Of a DNA stretch of 64,000 bases, positions 35,081 to 48,446 are shown in pieces (position 1 is the first letter of the stretch; each line of letters begins with the position of its first letter). Source of the stretch: Candidatus Micrarchaeota archaeon (lineage in GTDB: Archaea; Micrarchaeota; Micrarchaeia; Burarchaeales; JACRGF01). The DNA is taken from contig JACRGF010000009.1 of the NCBI GenBank assembly GCA_016212395.1, positions 28,132 through 92,131 of the forward strand, in the 5' to 3' direction. A model generated the notes under the pieces. It did no database searches and had not been told where the DNA came from. It saw nothing but the letters and a program-made list of their open reading frames with translations. The translations under genes and the position numbers were made by a program.

Positions 35081-37084
35081 ATGGTTGCTTCTATTTCAAA
35101 AGAATGGCGTTCTACTGCCGACGTTCCTGTTCCTGACAAGCTCGTGGACCAGATTATCGGCCAGACGAAAGGCGTTGAAATAATCAAGAAAGCAGCGAGG
35201 CAAAAGCGCAACGTTCTTCTAATCGGCTCGCCGGGCACTGGAAAGTCCATGCTCGCGCAGGGAATGGCGGAGCTCATGGGCGTTGAAGAGTTGGAGGACG
35301 TGCTCGTCTACCAAAACCCGAATGACGAGAACACTCCTCTCGTGAAAGTAGTCAAGACTTACCCTAAGGAGGAAGCGAAGAAATGGCAGGCAGAGCACGC
35401 GAAGTGGAAAGCGTTGCGCGCGAAGGAAGCGAAAGTGAAAGGCGAAAAATTTGATGAGAAGGAATTCGAGCTTCCAGGCTTGGGAAGGCGCACTGTCCAG
35501 CAAGAGAAAATGCGCGGCAGGATAGGCGGAAGCGGAATGCCTTCAATGATGGTCCTGCTTCTAATTCCTTTAATACTATTCATCATTTTTCAAGCGCTGA
35601 GCGCTCCGGACGGGAAAGGCGAAAACATTTTCGCAGCGCTCATCCTCGGATTGCTCATAATGGGCGCAGCGTGGCTGTTCACCTCCTCGATTTCAAAAAG
35701 AATGGGCTCGTTCGGAGAAACAGGCAGCGAGCCGAAACTAATAGTGGACAACACGAGCAAGAAAAGCGCTCCGTTCGTGGACGCGACAGGCTCGAAAGCA
35801 GGCGCGCTTTTCGGGGACGTCCGCCACGATCCGTTACAGAGTGGTGGATTAGGCACTCCAGCTCACTTGCGCGTCGAGAGCGGTGCTGTGCACCGCGCTA
35901 ACAAAGGCGTTCTCTACTTGGATGAAGTCGCGCTGCTCACTCCAAAAAGCCAGCAGGACTTGCTTTCTGCAATGCAAGAGAAAAAATTCTCTATTACCGG
36001 GCAAAGCGAAATGAGCAGCGGCGCTCTCGTGCGCACAGAACCCGTTCCGTGCGACTTCGTGCTCGTAGCTGCAGGCAACTACAGCGACATTGCCAAAATG
36101 CATCCTGCGTTGAGAAGCAGAATCCGCGGTTACGGGTATGAAGTGTACGTTGAAGACTCCATGCCTGACAGCGAGGAAAACCAGCTTAAGCTCATCCAGT
36201 TCGTCGCGCAGGAAGTAAAAAAGGACGGAAAGATTCCGCACTTTTCGCGCGAGGCAGTAGAAGAAATAATTGAAGACGCAAAGCGCAAGGCAGGCAGGAA
36301 AAACAAGCTGACGCTCAAGCTCCGCGAGCTCGGAGGCTTGATACGCGCTGCCGGAGACATTGCGCGCGAAGAAAAAGCGGAACTCGTGCTGCCCGGGCAT
36401 GTCGAGCGCGCGCGGAAAGTCGCGACTACGCTCGAACACCAGCTCGCCCAGCAGTTTATTGCAACAAAGAAAGACTACAAAGTGTTCGTCACTGAAGGCT
36501 TTGAAGTCGGGAGAGTAAACGGCCTCGCTGTTCTCGGGGAAGGCGACAGCGGGCTCATGCTTCCAATCGTCGCCGAGGTAACGCCTGCAAGCTCGAAAGC
36601 AGAAGGCAAGCTTGTTGCTACTGGAAAACTAGGAAAAATTGCGAAGGAAGCAGTTCAAAACGTCTCGGCAATCATCAAGAAGCACATTGGCAAAGACGTT
36701 TCCCAGTACGACATTCACGTCCAATTCCTCCAGACTTACGAGGGAGTTGAAGGCGATTCCGCGAGCATAAGCACTGCAGTAGCAGTGTTAAGCGCAATGG
36801 AAGACATCCCAGTAGACCAATCCATCGCCATGACCGGCAGTTTAAGCGTAAGAGGCGAAGTGTTGCCAGTCGGAGGCATTACTGCGAAAATAGAAGCAGC
36901 AATAGAAGGAGGCGCTCTCTCAGTAGTAATCCCGTACGCAAACAAAGACGACGTGTACCTCGAACAACGCTCTAAAAACAAAATCAAAATAATTCCAGCA
37001 AAAACAATTGTAGACGTGCTCGAGCACGTGCTGAAAAACCACCCGAAAAAGAAAAAGCTCATAGCAGACATGAAAGGCATTTGA
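35081..37084 (+). CDS. lonB: Archaeal membrane-anchored Lon protease LonB
   Basis: Walker [12 protein letters not shown], two TM helices inserted in the AAA+ domain ([14 protein letters not shown]...[14 protein letters not shown]), and a C-terminal Lon proteolytic domain (GDSASIS... Ser-Lys dyad region). The upstream 146 codons of ORF 34643 are a non-coding extension. Confidence 0.9.
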
Positions 37085-37134
37085 ACATTCAAAAAAACTG
37101 AAAACAATCCAGCGCAGAAAAAATAAAAAAAAAC

Positions 37135-37215
37135 AGAACCAGCAAAAGCATGTTGAAAGTCGCACATCTTTTTTTTCTCGCGAGAATTTGCCTTGTTTTT
37201 TTGCGTGTTGTTGCA
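37135..37215 (+). repeat. Downstream copy of lonB-flanking element (contains perfect palindrome TCTCGCGAGA)
   Basis: cagcaaaag...cttttttttctcgcgagaatttgccttgtttttttgcgtg. It sits in the convergent lonB / DUF373 terminator region. Confidence 0.5.
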
Positions 37216-37224
37216 GTCGCTTGC

Positions 37225-38457
37225 TTATCTTTTCACTACTACTTTTTCGTCTATGCTCGCGATTTGCTCGAGTTGGTAGGAAAGTTTTTGCCCGAGCGGG
37301 GTTTGGACGAATAGCATGCTTTTCTTCTTGTCTATGCCCACTATTTTTCCGAGGTACGTTCCGAACTCGTTGAGCGCTTCCTTGTTTTCAAGCTTCATTT
37401 CAGCAGCAATGCTTGCGCGTATTCTCTTCGTTGCTTCTATGGCTACGAACGCGAGGATGATGCTGAACATTATTGTTTTCACGAAGTCGATGAAGTAAGC
37501 GTCTGCAACCACCCAGTCGCTCGCAGTCTTGAGCAAAATCCACAAGAGGAATACTGTCACCACGTACAAGCCGTGCTTGGCTATCTCGAATTTTCTTCCT
37601 TCCCTTAAAGAATCAACAGCCATTCCTGCAATGGCGAGCACTGCAGCCCACGGCAAAAGAATGAGCGTGCTTCTGATAGTATAAGCAACTATTTTCACAG
37701 AGTCTATTGCTTGCGCTGTAGCAGTGGAATACTCCTGGAACCCGAGCCACACTGAAATGAGCACGAGTGGCAACGCTGCCAGGTACACGACGAAACTAAT
37801 GTTTTCAACAGAAAACTTGAATTCAAGCAGCTTCGAGAGAATCGCTTCCTCGAAACCAAAGCCTTTCAAAAGCAAGTAAGCGCCAATCACGAACACTACT
37901 GGCTTCCAGCCGAAGCCCAGCATTTCACTAATCGCGAACGCGAGAATAACGAGCGCTGGAATGCCTAGAATAATGCGCGCGTAGTAAGGCTCTTTCAATT
38001 TTTCAAGAAGCACGAAGTAAGTTTTCTCGAGTTCCTTCGCCTGCTTCATTATCACTATTTTAGTCGAATCGACTTTCACGCGCGAATTGACAATAGGCAA
38101 TACTTCTTCATCGTCATACCCGTCTGAAACGAACACGCATGATTCTGCCTGGAATTCAGACATTATCTTGTCCAACTGCCTGCTTATTTCCTTGTCCGCA
38201 GTATAGCCGAGCTTCCGCGAGCCTGTAAGCGTTGCAACCTGCACTTCTGCATTGCGCTCGCTTTTCTTCAACTCGTCGAATTCTTTCACTGCTTCAAAAA
38301 TCGCGTTCGCGTCAGGCTCTTCAGGGTCAGCTAGCGCGAGCTTTGTCGCAGCCTCCAAGTTCGCGTCCCTTCCAATAATCGGCCCGTTCACTTTCGCTTT
38401 CTCGCGCAAGTCGTTGTCACGGTCAATGCAAAGCACGAGCACTTTCCTTTTGTTCAT
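37225..38457 (-). CDS. DUF373 family membrane protein
   Basis: N-terminal MNKRKVLVLCIDRDNDL...LADPEEPDANAIFEA plus C-terminal TM helices, as in archaeal COG2237. Confidence 0.6.
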   Translation of the reverse strand: MNKRKVLVLCIDRDNDLREKAKVNGPIIGRDANLEAATKLALADPEEPDANAIFEAVKEFDELKKSERNAEVQVATLTGSRKLGYTADKEISRQLDKIMSEFQAESCVFVSDGYDDEEVLPIVNSRVKVDSTKIVIMKQAKELEKTYFVLLEKLKEPYYARIILGIPALVILAFAISEMLGFGWKPVVFVIGAYLLLKGFGFEEAILSKLLEFKFSVENISFVVYLAALPLVLISVWLGFQEYSTATAQAIDSVKIVAYTIRSTLILLPWAAVLAIAGMAVDSLREGRKFEIAKHGLYVVTVFLLWILLKTASDWVVADAYFIDFVKTIMFSIILAFVAIEATKRIRASIAAEMKLENKEALNEFGTYLGKIVGIDKKKSMLFVQTPLGQKLSYQLEQIASIDEKVVVKR

Positions 38458-40396: not shown

Positions 40397-41362
40397 ATGG
40401 CGTTGAAGAAAGAGCGCGTTCATTCTGCAGAGTGGCGCATTGCAAAAAAGATTGTTGACTTGAAGATTCCCTACATTATAATGATTGCGACGTTCGCGTT
40501 GTTCATGCTCACAAGAATGCAAGTGTTCATTTTCACTTCAGCGCTCGTGTTCGTGCTCACCCTCATCATCGAGTCTTTCTTTTCAGCAGACAAAATCGGC
40601 TGGAAGAAGGAATTCAAGGAAACAATAATCGCTGCTTTGGCTGCTGCAGTATTATGGCTTGCTGCAAGCTATTTCCTTCAAACGAGCGCTCCGCTCAACG
40701 GAATTCTCTCATGCTCAATGCTTCCCTCCCTCGAACGCGGAGACATGGTTGTTTTAAACGGCTGGAACATCAACGCGCCTGAAGTGAACGTTACTGAAAG
40801 CGAGTGGAAGCAAATTACTAACAGTGGCGCCCTGCATTTCGCGTGCGGAGTGTGCAGGAACGAAACAGCCAACTCGCCTTGCCTCATAGACCCTCGCTCT
40901 AACACTAAAGTCGAAGGCGACTACCCTCTGGAGTTCGAGTGCGGCTCGTGCGAAAACCTCAACCCTTCAACTAAAGTGAAGCAAACAGTTGCGTGCACGA
41001 AAAGCGTTACTATTCTCGGAAAGAAAATCGAGGAAAACTTGAGCAACGATGTAGTAGTTTACACTCCGCTTCCGTCCGACGTGTTCTCGCGCAGCGGGGA
41101 CATTATCCACCGCGTGTTCGTGAAAATAAACGTTGAAGGCAAAAACTATTACTTGATTAAAGGCGACAACAACCCTGGCTTTGACGTGCAAGTAGTCACG
41201 CCAACAGGCGACTCGAATTCTCCTGTTGCGCAGGAACGCGTGATAGGAAAAGTAATGCTCCGCCTCCCGTACATCGGCTACTACAAAATATTCCTCGCAG
41301 GCATAACAAACCCTGCATTGCTCGAAACGCCGGCAGGATGCGACGCGTACTTAGTGCACTAA
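40397..41362 (+). CDS. Type I signal peptidase (archaeal Sec11/S26B-like) with Cys-rich extracytoplasmic insertion
   Basis: Box B SMLPSLERGDMVV (catalytic Ser), GDIIHRVF (His), and box E LIKGDNNPGFD. A roughly 110-aa insert between them has CGVC...C...CGSC...C. Confidence 0.7.
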   Translation: MALKKERVHSAEWRIAKKIVDLKIPYIIMIATFALFMLTRMQVFIFTSALVFVLTLIIESFFSADKIGWKKEFKETIIAALAAAVLWLAASYFLQTSAPLNGILSCSMLPSLERGDMVVLNGWNINAPEVNVTESEWKQITNSGALHFACGVCRNETANSPCLIDPRSNTKVEGDYPLEFECGSCENLNPSTKVKQTVACTKSVTILGKKIEENLSNDVVVYTPLPSDVFSRSGDIIHRVFVKINVEGKNYYLIKGDNNPGFDVQVVTPTGDSNSPVAQERVIGKVMLRLPYIGYYKIFLAGITNPALLETPAGCDAYLVH

Positions 41363-41874
41363 GCGAGTTGAGGAGAATCGCTGCAAAAGAGGGCGTGCCG
41401 CAGGCAATAGTGGAAAAAGACCTTGCGCTATCAGTTGCTTTGAAGGTGATTGCCGAATCAAATTTGGCAGAACACGTGGTTTTCAAGGGAGGCACTGCAA
41501 TAAGGAAAATCTATTTCAAGGAAGCCAGGTTTTCCGAGGACTTGGATTTTAACGCGCTGGACGCTGGCAAAACAGAATGCATGAAATTGTTGAAGGACGC
41601 GCTTGAGGATAAAACAATCGATGGCGTAATTTTCGAAAAAGCCGAGGAAGAGAAAACGCCTGCCGGCCTCAAATCCGCGGTAAAGTACGTCGGCCCGTTG
41701 GCTCACGCGCAGAGAATCAGGTTCGACTTCAACTTCCGTGAAAACCTGGTTGAAAAGCCGGAGCGCAGGCAACTGATAGACGCGTACGGCCTTGGATTTG
41801 CAGAGCTCTCTGTTCTGGGGTTGGAAGAGATTTTTGCTGAAAAGCTTCACGCGCTCGGCTGCAGGTCTAATTAG
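41338..41874 (+). CDS. AbiEii/DUF1814-family nucleotidyltransferase toxin, apparently C-terminally truncated
   Basis: VVFKGGTAIRKIYFKEARFSEDLDFN is the AbiEii signature. It is only 178 aa and ends exactly where the AT-rich R-M insert begins. Confidence 0.6.
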   Translation: MRRVLSALSELRRIAAKEGVPQAIVEKDLALSVALKVIAESNLAEHVVFKGGTAIRKIYFKEARFSEDLDFNALDAGKTECMKLLKDALEDKTIDGVIFEKAEEEKTPAGLKSAVKYVGPLAHAQRIRFDFNFRENLVEKPERRQLIDAYGLGFAELSVLGLEEIFAEKLHALGCRSN

Positions 41875-41978
41875 ATTTAAAACCTGACTTTCGCAAATTG
41901 AAAATAGCGTGCCTAACTCTTTAAAAATAATCTGGTACAAACAGAAGTATCACGTGTGCTTTTTTAAGAGGTTAAAGA

Positions 41979-43016
41979 ATGAAGACCAGACATCAAATAA
42001 TATTGGACGATGCTCGAAGAATGTCTCATCTTAAAAATGAAAGCATAGACCTAATGGTAACCTCACCCCCTTATCCCATGATACAAATGTGGGACGAAAT
42101 GTTCTCGCGGCAAAATCCTGAAATTGAAGTTGCTATCAAAGATGAAAATAGCATTAAAGCATTTGAGTTGATGCATACCGAATTAGATAACGTTTGGAGA
42201 GAGGTTTACCGTACTTTAAAAGTAGGTGGAATTGCGTGTATAAATATCGGTGATGCCACCAGAAGTATGAACAATAAATTTCAGATACATACCAATCACG
42301 CACGAGTACTTAGTTTTTGTTTAGGTCTTGGTTTTCATGCACTACCCGAAGTGTTATGGATTAAAGAAACTAACAAACCTGACAAATTCATGGGTTCAGG
42401 AATGTTGCCTGTTGGAGCATATGTAACTTTAGAGCATGAGCACATTCTAATTCTAAGAAAGGGCGAGAAAAGAGAATTCAAAACGCAAGAAGAACGAGCA
42501 AACAGGCAAAAAAGTGCTTTTTTTTGGGAAGAACGAAATGTTTGGTTTTCTGATAAATGGAAGGATATAAACGGTGTTTTTCAGAAATTAAATCATACTC
42601 AATTAAGAGAAAGAAGTGCTGCTTATCCTATTGAATTGGCCTATAGACTGATTAGTATGTTTTCTGTTCAAGGGGATACTATCTTAGATCCTTATTTAGG
42701 AACTGGAACAACAATTCTTGCAGCTCTTGCTTCTGCGCGAAACAGTGTCGGTTATGAGATTGATAAAAACTTCAACGGTATAATAAACGAGAGAATAAAA
42801 GAAATCAAACATATTGCGAATGAAAGAAATGAGCAGAGGCTGAATAAACATAAAGATTTTATCAAAACGAGGATCAATGAAGGCGAAGAAAAATACCTCA
42901 ATAAAACCTATAATTTCCCAGTTGTAACTTCTCAAGAAACTAACATTGCAATACCCAAATTAAAAGAGATTGTTCAGATAGAAGACGGGCTATTCGAGGC
43001 TGAACACTATTATTGA
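41979..43016 (+). CDS. DNA methyltransferase, beta-class amino-MTase (N4-cytosine or N6-adenine), type II R-M
   Basis: Motif IV DLMVTSPPY lies upstream of motif I ILDPYLGTGTT (order IV to I means beta class). The SPPY form is common in N4C MTases. The region is AT-rich. Confidence 0.75.
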   Translation: MKTRHQIILDDARRMSHLKNESIDLMVTSPPYPMIQMWDEMFSRQNPEIEVAIKDENSIKAFELMHTELDNVWREVYRTLKVGGIACINIGDATRSMNNKFQIHTNHARVLSFCLGLGFHALPEVLWIKETNKPDKFMGSGMLPVGAYVTLEHEHILILRKGEKREFKTQEERANRQKSAFFWEERNVWFSDKWKDINGVFQKLNHTQLRERSAAYPIELAYRLISMFSVQGDTILDPYLGTGTTILAALASARNSVGYEIDKNFNGIINERIKEIKHIANERNEQRLNKHKDFIKTRINEGEEKYLNKTYNFPVVTSQETNIAIPKLKEIVQIEDGLFEAEHYY

Positions 43017-43645
43017 GATAACCTCGTTATTTCAGACTTTATCTCATCAATAACTTCTTTATTCGCGATAATTTTTCTACCTGTGTTTTCATCTTTCACG
43101 GAAAAAATATAAAACACCTTCCCACCGTATTTTTTTGCGAATTTGTCGTGTGTTTCTTTTTGTTGAGTTCTTTCATTTATTATTTGAGGGATATACTCAT
43201 ACCCTGTAGGCTTTATTTGCAATCCAACGTATTTTTCATTTATTTTGATGAAGAAATCAACATTATACCCTCTATCCCATTCATCGGGTGCTGGTTCTAT
43301 CTTAACACCAAGGATATCCTGTAATTGACCATATACTGTTTCTTTTTCAGAGGTATAGCCATCATACGTCCTATTGATGACAAGATTTATTACAAAATTT
43401 ATACAATCTTCTTCTGAAATCTCATCTATTTCTGCTCTTATAACTTCACTAATCTTAATGTAAAGTTTCTTTCCAAGCTCTACTAAATGCGATTTCGGAT
43501 AAACATTTTTGTAATAGTAGTCTTCCCATTCGATGATGCTTCTCGGGGAACATTTTCTAATTTCTTCTGCAACTGCACCAACCTGCTTTTTCTTATTAAG
43601 ACCCCAACGCATATTGGCACTATTCAAAACCCATTCTTTCGGCAT
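43010..43645 (-). CDS. Putative type II restriction endonuclease (partner of adjacent MTase)
   Basis: It is convergent with, and overlaps, the MTase 3' end and has the same anomalously low GC. It carries a possible PD-(D/E)xK-like segment GYNVDFFIKINEKYVGLQIK. No family assigned. Confidence 0.35.
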   Translation of the reverse strand: MPKEWVLNSANMRWGLNKKKQVGAVAEEIRKCSPRSIIEWEDYYYKNVYPKSHLVELGKKLYIKISEVIRAEIDEISEEDCINFVINLVINRTYDGYTSEKETVYGQLQDILGVKIEPAPDEWDRGYNVDFFIKINEKYVGLQIKPTGYEYIPQIINERTQQKETHDKFAKKYGGKVFYIFSVKDENTGRKIIANKEVIDEIKSEITRLSQ

Positions 43646-43742
43646 TTTCGTTACCTCTTATTCCAGTTGGCAGGCAACAAGTTTAAAGATTTCTCCTGCT
43701 TGAAAATACAAAGATGGAATAAAATAATTCCAATCTTCACTT

Positions 43743-45374
43743 CTACTTCTTTTTCTTCTTTTCTTTCACTGCTTGCAGGAATGCTTGGAATAACGGCGCG
43801 GGTTTTTCGAGCCTGCTCTTAAACTCCGGGTGGGCTTGCGTTGCAATGCCGAACCCTTCAGGCCATTCTATCATTTCAACTATTTTCCCGTCAGGAGACT
43901 TTCCCGACAATACCAACCCTTTTTCCTCGAGTTTTCCAGCGAGTTCAGGGTTTACTTCAAACCTGTGCCTGTGCCTCTCGCTCACTTCCTCTTTTCCGTA
44001 CGCTTGAAACGTTTTCGTTCCTTTCTTGATTTTGCACGGGTAAGCGCCGAGCCTCATCGTCGCGCCCTTGTCTTTCACGCTCTTCTGCTCTGGCAGCAAG
44101 TCTATCACTGGGTAGTGCGTGTCCGCGTCTATTTCAGTAGAGTTCGCGCCTGTCATTCCGCACTCGTTGCGCGCCCATTCTACTACCGCCATTTGCAGTC
44201 CAAAACACAACCCGAGAAACGGAATTCCGTTCTTGCGCGCGTAGTTAATGCACTTGATTTTCCCTTCGCTTCCCCTTGCGCCGAATCCGCCTGGAACTAT
44301 TATTCCGTCGCACTCGTCGAGCGCTGAAACAAGCAGTTTCCCGTCCTCTATTTCAGTTGTTTCAACCCACTTTATCTTCACTCCAACATCACAGTGCGCG
44401 CCTGCGTGCACGAGCGCTTCCTTGATGCTCACGTACGCGTCCTTCAACGCCGTGTATTTCCCGGTAATTCCTATTGTTGCAACTTCCCCAGGATGCCGAA
44501 TGCTGTGAACGAGCTTGTTCCATTCCTTCAAGTCGCTCCCGTTAGTTTTCACTCCGAGTTTTTCGAGAATAGTTGCGCACAGCCTTTGCTTTTCAAACAA
44601 TTCAGGCACTCCATAGATAGTGTCAGTGTCCGGGTCGTCTATAATCGCGTCTTCGTCAACGTTGCAGTACAACGCGATTTTCTTTCTTGCTTCCTTCGAG
44701 AGCGGTTCGACTTCCCTGCAAATCACTACTTTCGGGTTGATGCCGAGGCTTGCGAGCAGGCGGTTCGCGTGCTGTGTAGGCTTTGTCTTCTGCTCTCCAA
44801 GCGCTTCAAGAGTCGGAACGTAAGTCAACTGCACGAACAATACTTCTTCTTCAAACGACATTTGCCTCATTGCCTCCAAGAAGTAGCCGTTCTCCAAATC
44901 GCCTACAGTGCCTCCGACTTCAACCATCACCACGTCAGCGTCAAACGAGTCGCCTACTCCCTTCACCCACTTTTTAATCTCGTTAGTCAAATGCGGGACG
45001 AACTGCACGTCATAACCCAAATACCCTCCCTTGCGCTCCTTGTCAATAACCAAGCTGAAAATTTTCCCGCCAGTCAGGCTGTTTGACTTGTTCAAATTAA
45101 CATTGAGAAAACGCTCGTAAGTGCCCAAGTCCATGTCGCACTCTGTCCCGTCGTCAAGCACGAACACTTCACCGTGCCTGTAAGGGTTCATCGTCCCGCA
45201 GTCAACGTTCAAGTACCCGTCGAACTTCAACGGAACTACTTTCAGGTTGTGGCTCTGGAGAATTTTTCCAACAGAAGAAGTGACTATTCCTTTACCGAGC
45301 CCGCTCATGAGCGAGCCGGCTACCACGACAAACTTTCTTTTTTTCCCCTTGCTTCCATCAGATTCCTTTTGCAT
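43743..45374 (-). CDS. pyrG: CTP synthase
   Basis: N-terminal KFVVVAGSLMSGLGKG, and a glutamine amidotransferase domain with GLCFGLQ (Cys nucleophile) plus HRHRFEVN. Confidence 0.9.
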   Translation of the reverse strand: MQKESDGSKGKKRKFVVVAGSLMSGLGKGIVTSSVGKILQSHNLKVVPLKFDGYLNVDCGTMNPYRHGEVFVLDDGTECDMDLGTYERFLNVNLNKSNSLTGGKIFSLVIDKERKGGYLGYDVQFVPHLTNEIKKWVKGVGDSFDADVVMVEVGGTVGDLENGYFLEAMRQMSFEEEVLFVQLTYVPTLEALGEQKTKPTQHANRLLASLGINPKVVICREVEPLSKEARKKIALYCNVDEDAIIDDPDTDTIYGVPELFEKQRLCATILEKLGVKTNGSDLKEWNKLVHSIRHPGEVATIGITGKYTALKDAYVSIKEALVHAGAHCDVGVKIKWVETTEIEDGKLLVSALDECDGIIVPGGFGARGSEGKIKCINYARKNGIPFLGLCFGLQMAVVEWARNECGMTGANSTEIDADTHYPVIDLLPEQKSVKDKGATMRLGAYPCKIKKGTKTFQAYGKEEVSERHRHRFEVNPELAGKLEEKGLVLSGKSPDGKIVEMIEWPEGFGIATQAHPEFKSRLEKPAPLFQAFLQAVKEKKKKK

Positions 45375-46647: not shown

Positions 46648-47424
46648 ATGGAGTTCAAGAACGCCGTCACAGGCTTTATTCTCGCCTTCTTCATTCCCCT
46701 GTTCCTCAACTACTTTCTAGCATCAAGCCATTTTTACTTCACGGCATCGTTTCCTTTCCTCACTTTCCTTTTTCAAGTCGCGTCGCTCTTGCTCGCGATA
46801 GGCGTTTTCTATTACTACGCTGTTGAAAAATACTGGATTACGGACAGCAAGACGATAATGCTTTCAAGCATCGGCTTTCTCCTAATGGGCATTTCAACAG
46901 TTCCGTACGGGCTGAAATACTTGGGGCTTTTCTCGTACGACTTGAATATTGCAGGCCACTACTACCTGCTCACAACACTCGTTGCAAGCATTCTCATCGT
47001 CTCATGCGCTTTCTTCAAGGACGGAGTTTCAAAACGCGCTAAGGAACGCATGCTCGCAACTTTCGTGATGCTCGCAATCGCTTACCTCGTCCTGCTCACT
47101 GTAGCAATAATATTTTTCAGCAGCATGCTTCCCCCAGTGTTCGGGCCGAACGAGGAAAACCTTCCATTCAGGGCATACTTATCGCAAGCGATAATCCTCT
47201 TCCTCGCCTTCACTTCAGTCTACTTCGCACGCGTTTTCACTGAAAGCAAAAACGAAGTAATGTTCTGGTTTTCCGTCGGACTAGCGCTCTTGATAATGTC
47301 TGAAATAACATGGTCAGTATTCAAGCTCCAAGCAGACGACGTGTTCACGTGGCTCGGGTGCGTGTACCGGCTTGCAGCATTCGTCGCACTGCTCATTGGA
47401 ATGAAGCAAGTGTACATAGAATAA
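46648..47424 (+). CDS. Polytopic membrane protein of unknown function (about 7 TM)
   Basis: A hydrophobic 258-aa ORF directly after the histone gene. Confidence 0.4.
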   Translation: MEFKNAVTGFILAFFIPLFLNYFLASSHFYFTASFPFLTFLFQVASLLLAIGVFYYYAVEKYWITDSKTIMLSSIGFLLMGISTVPYGLKYLGLFSYDLNIAGHYYLLTTLVASILIVSCAFFKDGVSKRAKERMLATFVMLAIAYLVLLTVAIIFFSSMLPPVFGPNEENLPFRAYLSQAIILFLAFTSVYFARVFTESKNEVMFWFSVGLALLIMSEITWSVFKLQADDVFTWLGCVYRLAAFVALLIGMKQVYIE

Positions 47425-47429
47425 TCTCA

Positions 47430-48446
47430 TCATCCTACTTTAATTTCCGCCCCGTTCCCGCTTGCTTTTGCTATAAAACAATTTTCAAACTCTTCTTTTA
47501 TTTTTCTCGCAATTTTGTTTTTGTCAGTAAAACCGAACACTAAAGGCCCGAACGAACTCAAGCCCGCGCCCAAGCATTTTCTCTTCAACAATTCAAACGC
47601 TTCCTGCATTTCTTTGCTTTGGTATTCCCACTCAATTTTCTTGAAACCGCTTTCCTGAAGCGCGTTCAAGCATTCACCAAAAGAAACAGCGTCCTTCTCG
47701 CGCACGCTTTCAATTAATTCTTCATACACTATCTTCTTCGTCTTCTCCACTTCGCTTTTTGGAATAGGGCATTTTTCCTGGAAAATGTTTTTTTCTTTCT
47801 CTCCATAAATCATTGTTTCTCTTTTCCCAGGCAACACGCACGCGAACAGCCACTCTTTCGGCAGTTGAGAGTGGAAAACTATTTCAGGAGGCGGAGCGCT
47901 CGCAGCAGATGAAGGCAAAAACGCTTCCTTCTCATTTCCCTTCCCAAACGAGTGCCCTGCATCAACAATAAAGCCACCGCTTTCGAACGCCTTCACTCCA
48001 ACTCCACTCGTCCCGCCTCTTCCCACCAAGCAGGCAAGCTCTCTAATGCTTTTCTTTCCTCCATTCAACTCTTCGCACGCTTTCGCTACTGCAAGCAACA
48101 GTTGAGTAGTGCTCCCCAGTCCAACGTGCGAAGGAATTTCCTCTTCCACTTCAACGCGAAAATTCCCGTTAAAAAAATTTAGAACGTGTTCTATTTGCTT
48201 TCTTCTTTGTTCATTCGTTCCAATTACTTCGTTTTCGTTGCCTGCTTGTTTCTTGCTCGTTCGTGTTGTTTGTTCATTTGCTTGCTTTTCTCCTCTTGCT
48301 TCTATTTTCTCCAAAGTTATTTTCGCGTTAGGCTTTTCGAGCGCGACTCCAGCCCCACCGTCCACGCGCCCGCTTTCACCGTTCAAGTCCACTAGCGCGA
48401 AGTGCAGCCTGCTCGGAGTTTTCACTGAAACTCGCTTAATGCTCAT
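47430..48446 (-). CDS. GHMP-kinase-fold protein, beta-ribofuranosylaminobenzene 5'-phosphate synthase (MptG)-like
   Basis: N-terminal VKTPSRLHFALVDLNGESGRVDGGAGVAL resembles the beta-RFAP synthase family. It has a GHMP Gly-rich loop and a low-complexity insert. Confidence 0.5.
   Translation of the reverse strand: MSIKRVSVKTPSRLHFALVDLNGESGRVDGGAGVALEKPNAKITLEKIEARGEKQANEQTTRTSKKQAGNENEVIGTNEQRRKQIEHVLNFFNGNFRVEVEEEIPSHVGLGSTTQLLLAVAKACEELNGGKKSIRELACLVGRGGTSGVGVKAFESGGFIVDAGHSFGKGNEKEAFLPSSAASAPPPEIVFHSQLPKEWLFACVLPGKRETMIYGEKEKNIFQEKCPIPKSEVEKTKKIVYEELIESVREKDAVSFGECLNALQESGFKKIEWEYQSKEMQEAFELLKRKCLGAGLSSFGPLVFGFTDKNKIARKIKEEFENCFIAKASGNGAEIKVG

What the first reader, a model, noticed from the sequence alone, without database searches (positions are those of the whole stretch)
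41875..43742. AT-rich type II restriction-modification cassette inserted next to a truncated AbiEii toxin gene
The composition drops sharply at about 41876 and recovers at about 43742. Inside are a beta-class amino-methyltransferase (SPPY motif IV before FxGxG motif I) and a convergent, 3'-overlapping 211-aa ORF of equally low GC. That ORF is the natural candidate for the cognate endonuclease, but it matches no family I recognise. The insert abuts the 3' end of an AbiEii-like gene that is only 178 aa, suggesting the insertion truncated it. Together with AbiEii this forms a small defense islet between the signal peptidase and pyrG.
Basis: partly seen in the sequence, partly recalled or inferred. 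Interest (0 to 1): 0.55.

Follow-up and report, generated by a model that had tools for sequence, protein, structure and literature searches.

The report
Acquired MjaI-type restriction-modification cassette
A small archaeon (Micrarchaeota) picked up an ordinary two-gene restriction-modification system of the known MjaI/MthZI type (probably cutting CTAG) in the gap between two housekeeping genes, next to a dead fragment of an AbiE toxin gene; this is a clear example of gene transfer but not a new kind of system.

Summary
Window 41868-43742 has 34.6% GC against 48.0 ± 1.6% elsewhere (z = -8.1) and is the strongest tetranucleotide outlier in the window. It holds a beta-class amino-methyltransferase (41979-43016, +) and a convergent 211-aa ORF (43010-43645, -) overlapping it by 7 nt.

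It is an MjaI-family restriction endonuclease (Pfam PF09568, E = 8.6e-43), and NCBI already gives the identical protein that name. The methyltransferase is 51% identical over its full length to the one on plasmid pFZ1, home of the CTAG system MthZI. pFZ1 has the same convergent, overlapping gene pair.

Two close relatives (L096, L097) keep the same gene order, but their signal peptidase and pyrG genes are only 19 and 169 nt apart. So about 2.38 kb here is lineage-specific. The nearest cassette relatives sit in unrelated neighbourhoods on contigs of 30-34% GC.

The AbiEii gene is a remnant, codons 4-173 of 252. It has no native start codon, no AbiEi antitoxin and no motif IV, so it is probably non-toxic.

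Verdict: an ordinary, horizontally acquired type II R-M cassette, a new member of a known family, of low interest. Whether it truncated abiEii in this genome or arrived already joined to the fragment is unresolved.

The parts
40397..41362 (+). Signal-peptidase-like host gene on the left flank. Its C-terminus is native (...CDAYLVH*), and its stop codon TAA at 41360-41362 sits on the junction with abiEii-derived DNA.
   Evidence: 79% nt identity to L096 up to window 41361, and the C-termini align with L096 and L097. Homologues are named 'signal peptidase I' by JGI. No Pfam hit at E <= 0.01.
41359..41867 (+). abiEii remnant: codons ~4-173 of a 252-codon AbiEii (DUF1814) nucleotidyltransferase toxin gene. 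GC is 0.50. Motifs I-III are kept and motif IV (RDLYD) is lost. There is no native start codon and no abiEi antitoxin gene.
   Evidence: 88% nt identity to intact abiEii on L084 over window 41360-41867; tblastn finds only residues 1-173 and no AbiEi anywhere in the window. PF08843 E = 9.4e-24, covering profile positions 3-149 of 238. Relatives are 252 aa and preceded by AbiEi_4. Junction sequences.
41338..41874 (+). Its ATG and first codons lie inside the signal peptidase gene in another frame, its body is the abiEii remnant, and its last codon and TAG stop come from the AT-rich block.
   Evidence: ORF list. The native ATG position reads CTT at 41350. Homology ends at 41867.
41868..41961 (+). 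Left AT-rich spacer (GC 0.32) with no homology to other cassettes. It contains a TATA-like TTTAAAAATA near 41921; a GAGGT Shine-Dalgarno-like motif lies just beyond it (~41968-41972), ahead of the methyltransferase ATG. Promoter roles are inferred, not tested.
   Evidence: Sequence, composition, and homology to L089/L090 beginning only at 41962.
41979..43016 (+). Beta-class amino-methyltransferase, 345 aa, a relative of M.MthZI/M.MjaI. Predicted to make m4C in CTAG.
   Evidence: PF01555 E = 1.4e-36. PADLOC MTase_II PDLC03283 E = 2.6e-152 over the full length. 51% identity over 341 aa to the pFZ1 methyltransferase, E = 1e-131. PDB: 2zie E = 1.5e-31, plus N4-cytosine methyltransferases 8s9m/8s9n. 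dN/dS 0.06-0.08 against L089/L091.
43010..43645 (-). MjaI-family type II restriction endonuclease, 211 aa, with an N-terminal helical domain and a C-terminal PD-(D/E)XK-like core (D130 ... Q143-I-K145).
   Evidence: PF09568 RE_MjaI E = 8.6e-43, profile 1-164 of 164. PADLOC REase_II E = 1.3e-27. The identical protein is named 'MjaI family restriction endonuclease' by NCBI. All 69 invariant columns of a 27-sequence alignment are kept. AF2 model pLDDT 87. Best PDB fold matches are Hjc and cap-snatching endonucleases, but weak. dN/dS 0.03 against L089.
41962..43658 (.). The conserved two-gene R-M module, defined as the extent of DNA homology to the same module in other genomes.
   Evidence: 80% nt identity to L089/L090 over 41962-43658, 78% to L091/L092 over 41978-43648, and 73% to L093-L095. 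Those copies lie in three unrelated neighbourhoods on contigs of 30-34% GC.
43659..43742 (-). Right AT-rich spacer (GC 0.32) between the REase start and the pyrG stop codon. On the minus strand it has a TATA-like CTTTAAAC; an AGAGGT Shine-Dalgarno-like motif lies just beyond it (~43652-43657), ahead of the REase ATG (inferred).
   Evidence: Sequence, composition, and host homology resuming at 43746/43747.
43743..45374 (-). pyrG (CTP synthase), the host gene on the right flank. Its last two Lys codons and stop codon differ from L096, so the junction lies within about 43743-43752.
   Evidence: PF06418 and PF00117. 86% nt identity to L096 from window 43747. C-terminus and junction alignment.

Best explanation
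Window 41868-43742 is a horizontally acquired two-gene type IIP restriction-modification cassette of the MjaI/MthZI kind.

Proposed mechanism: the methyltransferase (beta-class, SPPY catalytic motif) methylates the host's own target sites, most likely making N4-methylcytosine in CTAG. There are 44 CTAG sites in this window alone. The MjaI-family endonuclease, which has a PD-(D/E)XK-like core, cuts unmethylated incoming DNA at the same sites.

Origin: the cassette came from a low-GC organism, most likely another DPANN archaeon. It landed by illegitimate recombination, without transposase, integrase, target duplication or terminal repeats, in the very short spacer between the convergent signal peptidase and pyrG genes of a Micrarchaeota archaeon.

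Beside it lies a dead remnant of an abiEii toxin gene. The remnant's 3' break coincides to the base with the start of the cassette DNA. It lacks motif IV and its antitoxin gene.

Shown: the family assignments, the foreign composition, the empty site in relatives, the exact junctions, and the intactness of both R-M genes. Inferred: CTAG/m4C specificity, current activity, promoter use, and the order of events.
For: - Composition: GC 0.346 against 0.480, z = -8.1, and GC3 0.30 against 0.60.
- REase: PF09568 RE_MjaI, E = 8.6e-43 over the full profile; the identical protein carries that name at NCBI; 4472 homologues at E <= 1e-5.
- MTase: PF01555 and PADLOC MTase_II E = 2.6e-152; 51% identical over its full length to the pFZ1 methyltransferase.
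- Architecture: pFZ1 carries the same convergent, overlapping MTase plus 'MjaI family restriction endonuclease' pair.
- Specificity of the family: M.MjaI and M.MthZI are beta-class m4C CTAG enzymes, and MthZI cuts C/TAG (PMC11033074 and PMC5867850).
- Empty sites: L096 (signal peptidase 86% aa) has 19 nt and L097 (71%) has 169 nt between the signal peptidase and pyrG stop codons, with the same flanking gene order.
- Mobility: the same module occurs in three unrelated neighbourhoods on contigs of 30-34% GC, and an 87%-identical REase is from an Aenigmatarchaeota MAG.
- Intactness: no internal stops, all family-invariant residues kept, and dN/dS 0.03-0.08.
- Fold: confident model (pLDDT 87) whose best PDB matches are all PD-(D/E)XK nucleases.
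- abiEii remnant: homology to the intact gene ends at 41867, codon 173 of 252, three residues before motif IV 'RDLYD'. A motif IV mutation (D192A) abolishes GTP binding and toxicity (PMC3985639).
Against: - Specificity is not measured. The REase is only 25% identical to the pFZ1 MjaI-family REase, and 51% methyltransferase identity does not guarantee the same target.
- CTAG depletion (O/E 0.51) is equally present in relatives that lack the cassette, so it says nothing about specificity.
- The fold matches are weak (E 2e-3 to 1e-1, query-normalised TM <= 0.32).
- There are no expression or methylome data.
- No mobility genes or repeats explain the integration.
- The direct donor is not identified. 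Synonymous sites are saturated against the nearest cassette relatives.
- No relatives were found on phage or viral contigs, and only three distant ones on plasmids.
Confidence: 0.85

Rival explanations
1. Sequential events in this genome. A complete abiEi-abiEii operon first inserted into the signal peptidase|pyrG spacer. The R-M cassette then arrived and replaced the 3' third of abiEii, inactivating the toxin. With the toxin dead, the antitoxin gene abiEi became dispensable and was deleted back to the signal peptidase stop codon.
For: The homology break in abiEii coincides to the base with the GC break at 41867|41868. The remnant has host-like GC (0.50) while the cassette has 0.35, so they have different histories. 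The remnant is still an open frame, and dN/dS on its branch is only mildly raised (about 0.21 against 0.10-0.12), as expected for a recent inactivation. Losing motif IV explains why losing the antitoxin is tolerated.
Against: It needs three events. The abiEi deletion would have to end within 0-3 nt of the signal peptidase stop codon, although selection against longer deletions makes that less of a coincidence. No intermediate state (signal peptidase-abiEi-abiEii-pyrG) was found in any relative. The dN/dS counts are small.
Confidence: 0.4
2. A single capture of a pre-assembled fragment. The abiEii fragment and the R-M cassette were already joined in a donor, such as a defence island of another Micrarchaeon or a plasmid. 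One piece running from abiEii codon 4 to the REase upstream spacer was then captured during repair of a break in the 19-nt spacer.
For: Only one event and two junctions are needed, and both junctions sit exactly at the stop codons of the flanking essential genes. The abiEii fragment lacks both its ends, as expected for a random fragment. There is 2-3 nt of microhomology (TA/TAA) at the left junction. abiEii relatives at 81-88% identity lie in unrelated contexts, so this gene is itself mobile.
Against: The junction sequence was not found elsewhere, with no exact match in JGI metagenomes. The two parts differ by 15 points of GC, so even in a donor the cassette must have been a recent arrival. 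There is no direct evidence for such a donor.
Confidence: 0.4
3. The cassette is present but no longer restricts. Either the methyltransferase acts as an orphan, or both genes are silent passengers.
For: There are no expression data. Orphan CTAG methyltransferases of this family exist in archaea, for example HVO_0794 of Haloferax (PMC5867850). Convergent overlapping transcription could limit REase expression.
Against: The REase is full length with every family-invariant residue, including D130 and Q143-I-K145. dN/dS is 0.03 against the nearest relative. The unameliorated composition implies recent arrival with little time to decay. The sequence is identical in two independent samples.
Confidence: 0.12
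4. It is an MjaI-family R-M system with a specificity other than CTAG.
For: The REase is only 25% identical to the pFZ1 family member. Type II REase families can contain more than one specificity (general knowledge).
Against: The characterised systems cited here (MjaI, MthZI/MthFI) recognise CTAG. The methyltransferase aligns end to end with M.MthZI at 51% identity, including the central target-recognition region.
Confidence: 0.2
5. The low-GC block is native DNA with unusual composition rather than a horizontal acquisition.
For: None beyond the absence of mobility genes and repeats.
Against: The two closest relatives have the signal peptidase and pyrG adjacent. GC3 is 0.30 against 0.60. The same module occurs at 73-80% nt identity in unrelated low-GC genomes.
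Confidence: 0.01

Closest known systems
MthZI restriction-modification system of Methanothermobacter plasmid pFZ1 (NC_001337.1)
   Same: Identical architecture: a ~350-aa beta-class methyltransferase and a ~200-aa MjaI-family endonuclease, convergent with overlapping 3' ends. The methyltransferase is 51% identical over its full length. Both are carried on mobile DNA. M.MthZI makes m4C in CTAG and MthZI cuts C/TAG.
   Different: The REase is only 25% identical. Here the pair is chromosomal in a DPANN archaeon rather than on a methanogen plasmid. The specificity of the present pair is untested.
MjaI / M.MjaI of Methanocaldococcus jannaschii (CTAG, m4C), type member of Pfam PF09568
   Same: The REase matches the RE_MjaI profile end to end at E = 8.6e-43, against a cut-off of 22.7 bits. 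M.MjaI is listed as a type II beta-class m4C CTAG methyltransferase.
   Different: The host is a hyperthermophilic methanogen.
AbiE (AbiEi/AbiEii) type IV toxin-antitoxin abortive-infection system
   Same: The remnant is 87% identical in protein to the first 173 residues of an intact 252-aa AbiEii and keeps NTase motifs I-III.
   Different: There is no abiEi antitoxin gene, no native start codon and no motif IV (+DxxD), and 79 C-terminal residues are missing. It is a gene fragment, not a system.
Orphan CTAG m4C methyltransferases of haloarchaea (HVO_0794, M.HsaR1I)
   Same: Same methyltransferase family. Haloarchaeal plasmid homologues are 48% identical to the window methyltransferase, and the family is described in PMC5867850.
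   Different: Those enzymes lack a partner REase. Here an intact partner overlaps the methyltransferase gene.

Membership tests
MjaI/MthZI-type type IIP R-M system | Endonuclease matches the RE_MjaI family profile above the curated cut-off | tested here: met
   PF09568: 146.4 bits against a cut-off of 22.7, E = 8.6e-43, profile 1-164 of 164. NCBI names the identical protein an MjaI family restriction endonuclease.
MjaI/MthZI-type type IIP R-M system | Partner is a beta-class N4/N6 amino-methyltransferase (motif IV before motif I) homologous to M.MthZI/M.MjaI | tested here: met
   PF01555 E = 1.4e-36. SPPY at residues 29-32 and LGTG at 240-243. 51% identity over 341 aa to the 355-aa pFZ1 methyltransferase. 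That this pFZ1 gene is mthZIM rests on the literature, not on the record's annotation.
MjaI/MthZI-type type IIP R-M system | Adjacent R and M genes, convergent with overlapping 3' ends | tested here: met
   7-nt overlap at 43010-43016. The same arrangement is seen in pFZ1 and in L089-L095.
MjaI/MthZI-type type IIP R-M system | Recognition of CTAG with cleavage C/TAG | not testable with these tools
   Inferred from family membership only. CTAG depletion is uninformative because it is the same in relatives without the cassette.
MjaI/MthZI-type type IIP R-M system | N4-methylcytosine product | not testable with these tools
   The SPPY catalytic motif and hits to solved N4-cytosine methyltransferases (8s9m/8s9n, E ~ 1e-9, C-terminal region only) are consistent but not decisive.
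PD-(D/E)XK nuclease superfamily | alpha-beta-beta-beta-alpha-beta core carrying D ... (D/E/Q)xK catalytic residues | tested here: inconclusive
   AF2 model with pLDDT 87, strands at 116-118, 131-135, 138-146 and 174-184. Invariant D130 and Q143-I-K145. The best PDB matches are all PD-(D/E)XK enzymes (Hjc at probability 0.97-0.99), but E is only 2e-3 to 1e-1 and TM is low. No family member has a solved structure.
AbiE type IV toxin-antitoxin / abortive infection system | Full-length DUF1814 AbiEii toxin with NTase motifs I-IV | tested here: not met
   Only profile positions 3-149 of 238 (Pfam) or 5-175 of 260 (PADLOC) are covered. The gene ends at codon 173 of 252, before motif IV 'RDLYD'.
AbiE type IV toxin-antitoxin / abortive infection system | Upstream, overlapping abiEi antitoxin gene forming a bicistronic operon | tested here: not met
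   tblastn with the AbiEi of L084 finds nothing in the 64-kb window (best E = 2.2). Intact relatives all have AbiEi_4 immediately upstream.
Transposon / IS / integrative element | Terminal inverted repeats, target-site duplication, or a transposase/integrase gene | tested here: not met
   There are no flanking direct or inverted repeats beyond chance matches. The only ORFs with family support in the block are the R and M genes.

The most novel reading that the evidence does not exclude
The abiEii fragment may not be inert debris. It keeps NTase motifs I-III and an open frame that has gained a new start inside the signal peptidase gene and a new stop from the cassette, and it shows only mildly relaxed constraint. 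It could be expressed as a non-toxic, antitoxin-independent nucleotidyltransferase, or as a leader that drives and couples methyltransferase expression. More broadly, the locus may record a one-step capture of a composite defence fragment during break repair in a DPANN archaeon, which would be a route to building defence islands without mobility genes.
Probability: 0.06. Interest if true: 0.4.

Novelty: new member of a known kind. Interest (0 to 1): 0.15.

Why it matters
As biology this is routine. MjaI-family R-M pairs are widespread, with more than 4,400 homologues in CPR bacteria, DPANN archaea and others, and this exact protein is already named in NCBI.

Its value is as a well-documented case. 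The empty site, all three junctions and the composition are resolved to the base. Together they show that a reduced-genome Micrarchaeon gained a defence cassette from a low-GC neighbour in the only permissive spot between two essential convergent genes, and that one defence module (R-M) lies where another (AbiE) decayed.

It also gives a testable prediction for this uncultured lineage: m4CTAG methylation.

Tried and rejected
- Target-site duplications and terminal repeats at the borders: only short chance matches.
- Synteny in 80 species-representative genomes through pyrG: too distant. Only L044 kept histone-HTH-pyrG, and L030/L032/L050 have the signal peptidase 4.6-5.6 kb upstream of pyrG, which reads in the same direction as it there rather than converging on it.
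- JGI metagenome scan with the signal peptidase: no relatives.
- Exact search for the abiEii|cassette junction in JGI metagenomes: no match, so the 'pre-assembled fragment' scenario could not be tested.
- Vectors: no REase relatives in INPHARED phages or IMG/VR viral contigs. Only three distant Bacillales megaplasmid hits at 24-27% identity.
- CTAG avoidance as evidence of specificity: rejected. O/E of about 0.5 is also seen in relatives lacking the cassette.
- dN/dS on the abiEii remnant: the window branch is about 0.21 against 0.10-0.12, which is suggestive only because counts are small.
- NCBIfam gave no equivalog for either R-M protein.
Full report
**1. The observation**

The compositional trough is real. 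In 300-nt windows, GC falls from 0.47-0.51 to 0.32-0.37 between about 41850 and 43800, then returns to 0.51. The block 41869-43742 has GC 0.346. The rest of the window averages 0.480, with SD 0.016 over 1168 equal-sized windows and a lowest value of 0.427, so z = -8.1. Third-codon-position GC is 0.30 in both enclosed genes, against 0.59-0.61 in the flanking genes. The largest tetranucleotide distance in the 64 kb starts at 41801.

- a 178-aa ORF at 41338-41874 (+);
- a 345-aa ORF at 41979-43016 (+);
- a convergent 211-aa ORF at 43010-43645 (-) that overlaps it by 7 nt.

**2. What the genes are**

The 345-aa protein is a DNA amino-methyltransferase (PF01555, E = 1.4e-36; PADLOC MTase_II PDLC03283, E = 2.6e-152 over its full length).

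The identical sequence is already in NCBI as 'MjaI family restriction endonuclease [Candidatus Micrarchaeota archaeon]' on a 112,653-bp contig. The family has at least 4472 members at E <= 1e-5, spread over Patescibacteria, DPANN archaea, Atribacteria and others.

The 178-aa ORF is an AbiEii (DUF1814) fragment (PF08843, E = 9.4e-24, profile positions 3-149 of 238).

**3. Comparison with the characterised systems**

The methyltransferase is 51% identical over 341 residues (E = 1e-131) to the 355-aa methyltransferase of Methanothermobacter plasmid pFZ1, NC_001337.1. In pFZ1 that gene is followed by a convergent, 3'-overlapping gene annotated 'MjaI family restriction endonuclease', which is the same architecture as here.

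The literature held in the library says the following:
- MthZI of strain Z-245 cuts C/TAG.
- M.MthZI is an experimentally characterised m4C CTAG methyltransferase.
- M.MjaI is a type II beta-class m4C CTAG enzyme (PMC11033074, PMC5867850).

The two REases are only 25% identical (E = 6e-9), as is usual for restriction enzymes.

No member of the family has a solved structure. An AlphaFold model built from 27 homologues is confident (pLDDT 87.2). It shows an N-terminal helical domain and a C-terminal alpha/beta core. Its best PDB matches are all PD-(D/E)XK nucleases: archaeal Hjc resolvases at probability 0.97-0.99, and bunyaviral cap-snatching endonucleases. The E-values are weak, at 2e-3 to 1e-1. 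Family-invariant D130 and Q143-I-K145 lie on the predicted strands. I treat the fold assignment as likely but not proven.

**4. It is foreign DNA: the empty site**

The host is a Micrarchaeota (DPANN) archaeon; the best pyrG matches, at 64-71%, are Micrarchaeota MAGs. Synteny is lost in the 80 species representatives. Two closer relatives were found through the signal-peptidase-like protein:
- L096 (86% aa identity) has RpoL-EndoDU-signal peptidase, then 19 nt, then convergent pyrG.
- L097 (71%) has the same layout with a 169-nt spacer, followed by HTH, histone, MASE3, GHMP kinase and flavoprotein genes, exactly as in the window.

Host homology runs up to window 41361 and resumes at 43746/43747. 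About 2.38 kb between the two stop codons is therefore specific to this lineage.

The same M/R module occurs at 73-80% nt identity (window 41962-43658) in three unrelated neighbourhoods: beside hicA and small ORFs, between LSM and ribosomal protein S8e genes, and between a HAD hydrolase gene and an HFX_2341_N-like gene. All are on contigs of 30-34% GC. An 87%-identical REase is from an Aenigmatarchaeota MAG. The cassette's composition thus matches the genomes where its relatives live, not this 48%-GC host.

There is no transposase or integrase, no target duplication and no terminal repeats. No relatives were found in phage or viral collections.

**5. The abiEii remnant**

All close relatives of the 178-aa ORF, up to 88% identical, are 252-257 aa long and are preceded by an overlapping AbiEi_4 antitoxin gene. 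DNA homology to the intact gene on L084 (88%) runs from window 41359/41360 to 41867 and stops at codon 173 of 252. No AbiEi-like sequence exists anywhere in the window, and the missing 79 codons are not on the far side of the cassette.

- Left junction. Window ...GTGCAC|TAAGCGAGTTG... is host up to the signal peptidase stop codon and abiEii from codon 4 onward, with 2-3 nt of microhomology. The native ATG position reads CTT. The ATG of the called ORF lies inside the signal peptidase gene in another frame.
- Right junction. Window ...GGCTGCAGGTC|TAATTAGATTT... against L084 ...GGCTGCAGGTC|GGCACCAAGAGACTTGTATGAC....

The break falls between motif III (KLxAxxxR, kept as KLHALGCR) and motif IV (+DxxD, RDLYD, lost). 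In S. agalactiae AbiEii, the motif IV mutation D192A abolished GTP binding and toxicity (PMC3985639). The remnant is therefore most likely non-toxic, which explains why the absence of the antitoxin is tolerated.

dN/dS on the window branch is about 0.21, against 0.10-0.12 on the others, and the frame is still open. This is compatible with a recent inactivation, but the counts are small.

**6. How it most likely works**

Shown: an intact methyltransferase and an intact REase. Neither has internal stops, the REase keeps every residue that is invariant across its homologues, and dN/dS is 0.03-0.08 against the nearest cassettes. They sit in a recently acquired, unameliorated block.

Inferred:
- The methyltransferase makes m4C in CTAG on host DNA; there are 44 sites in this window.
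- The REase cuts unmethylated CTAG in incoming DNA.
- Each gene has an AT-rich upstream spacer with a TATA-like box and an AGAGGT-type ribosome-binding site (sequence).
- Each gene also lies co-directionally downstream of a host gene (signal peptidase > remnant > M; pyrG > R), so read-through is possible.

CTAG depletion (O/E 0.51) cannot be used as support, because relatives without the cassette show the same value.

**7. Order of events**

This is unresolved. One possibility is that an abiE operon inserted first, the cassette then replaced its 3' end, and abiEi was later deleted. The other is that a pre-joined fragment (abiEii codons 4-173 plus the cassette) was captured in one step. Both junctions with host DNA sit exactly at the stop codons of the flanking genes, and the ancestral 19-nt spacer is gone. 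The last two Lys codons and the stop codon of pyrG were even reshaped. An exact search for the abiEii|cassette junction in JGI metagenomes found nothing. I give the two scenarios roughly equal weight.

**8. Verdict**

The one open point it raised, the identity of the 211-aa ORF, is settled in favour of a restriction endonuclease of a known family.

The system is a new, uncharacterised member of the MjaI/MthZI kind, with the archetypal gene arrangement, and it is already named by NCBI's annotation. It is an ordinary finding with a well-resolved history of horizontal acquisition. Interest is 0.15.

Noticed in passing
whole window outside 41869-43742; also L096, L005, L019: GATC is strongly depleted: 16 observed against 77 expected (O/E 0.21), more than any other 4-nt palindrome. 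Depletion is similar or stronger in some relatives (0.05-0.11) but absent in L097 (0.85). This suggests GATC-directed restriction pressure in parts of this lineage.
   Followed up: partly
window 43743-43752: pyrG ends ...KEKKKKK* here against ...KEKKK* in L096. The ancestral stop position is now a Lys codon and the stop lies 6 nt further out, so the insertion event reshaped the last codons of an essential gene.
   Followed up: partly
window 40340/40397-41362: The signal-peptidase-like protein carries an SCSMLPSLERGD motif and JGI names its homologues 'signal peptidase I', yet it has no Pfam hit at E <= 0.01. It appears to be a divergent Micrarchaeota-specific family, with 343 homologues at E <= 1e-10.
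   Followed up: no
L089 1-7100 (ERZ27284378 k139_379176): The closest cassette relative (80% nt) lies beside a HicA toxin gene and a run of small unannotated ORFs on a 33.5%-GC contig. This may be a plasmid or virus that carries the cassette.
   Followed up: no
L093 6001-12633 (GCA_964396475.1 CAYNFE010000001.1): Another cassette copy is followed by an HFX_2341_N/Csa3_N-like gene, with a serine resolvase gene about 5 kb away, which hints at a larger mobile or defence region.
   Followed up: no
window 36900-37350 and 47400-47700: There are two smaller GC dips (0.39-0.40) elsewhere in the profiled stretch, far weaker than the cassette trough. I did not examine them.
   Followed up: no
L084 3045-4594; L085 377-1926: Intact abiEi-abiEii operons 81-88% identical to the remnant lie in unrelated contexts, for example next to hypA/hypC on a 57%-GC contig. 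The AbiE module is therefore itself moving among these organisms.
   Followed up: partly
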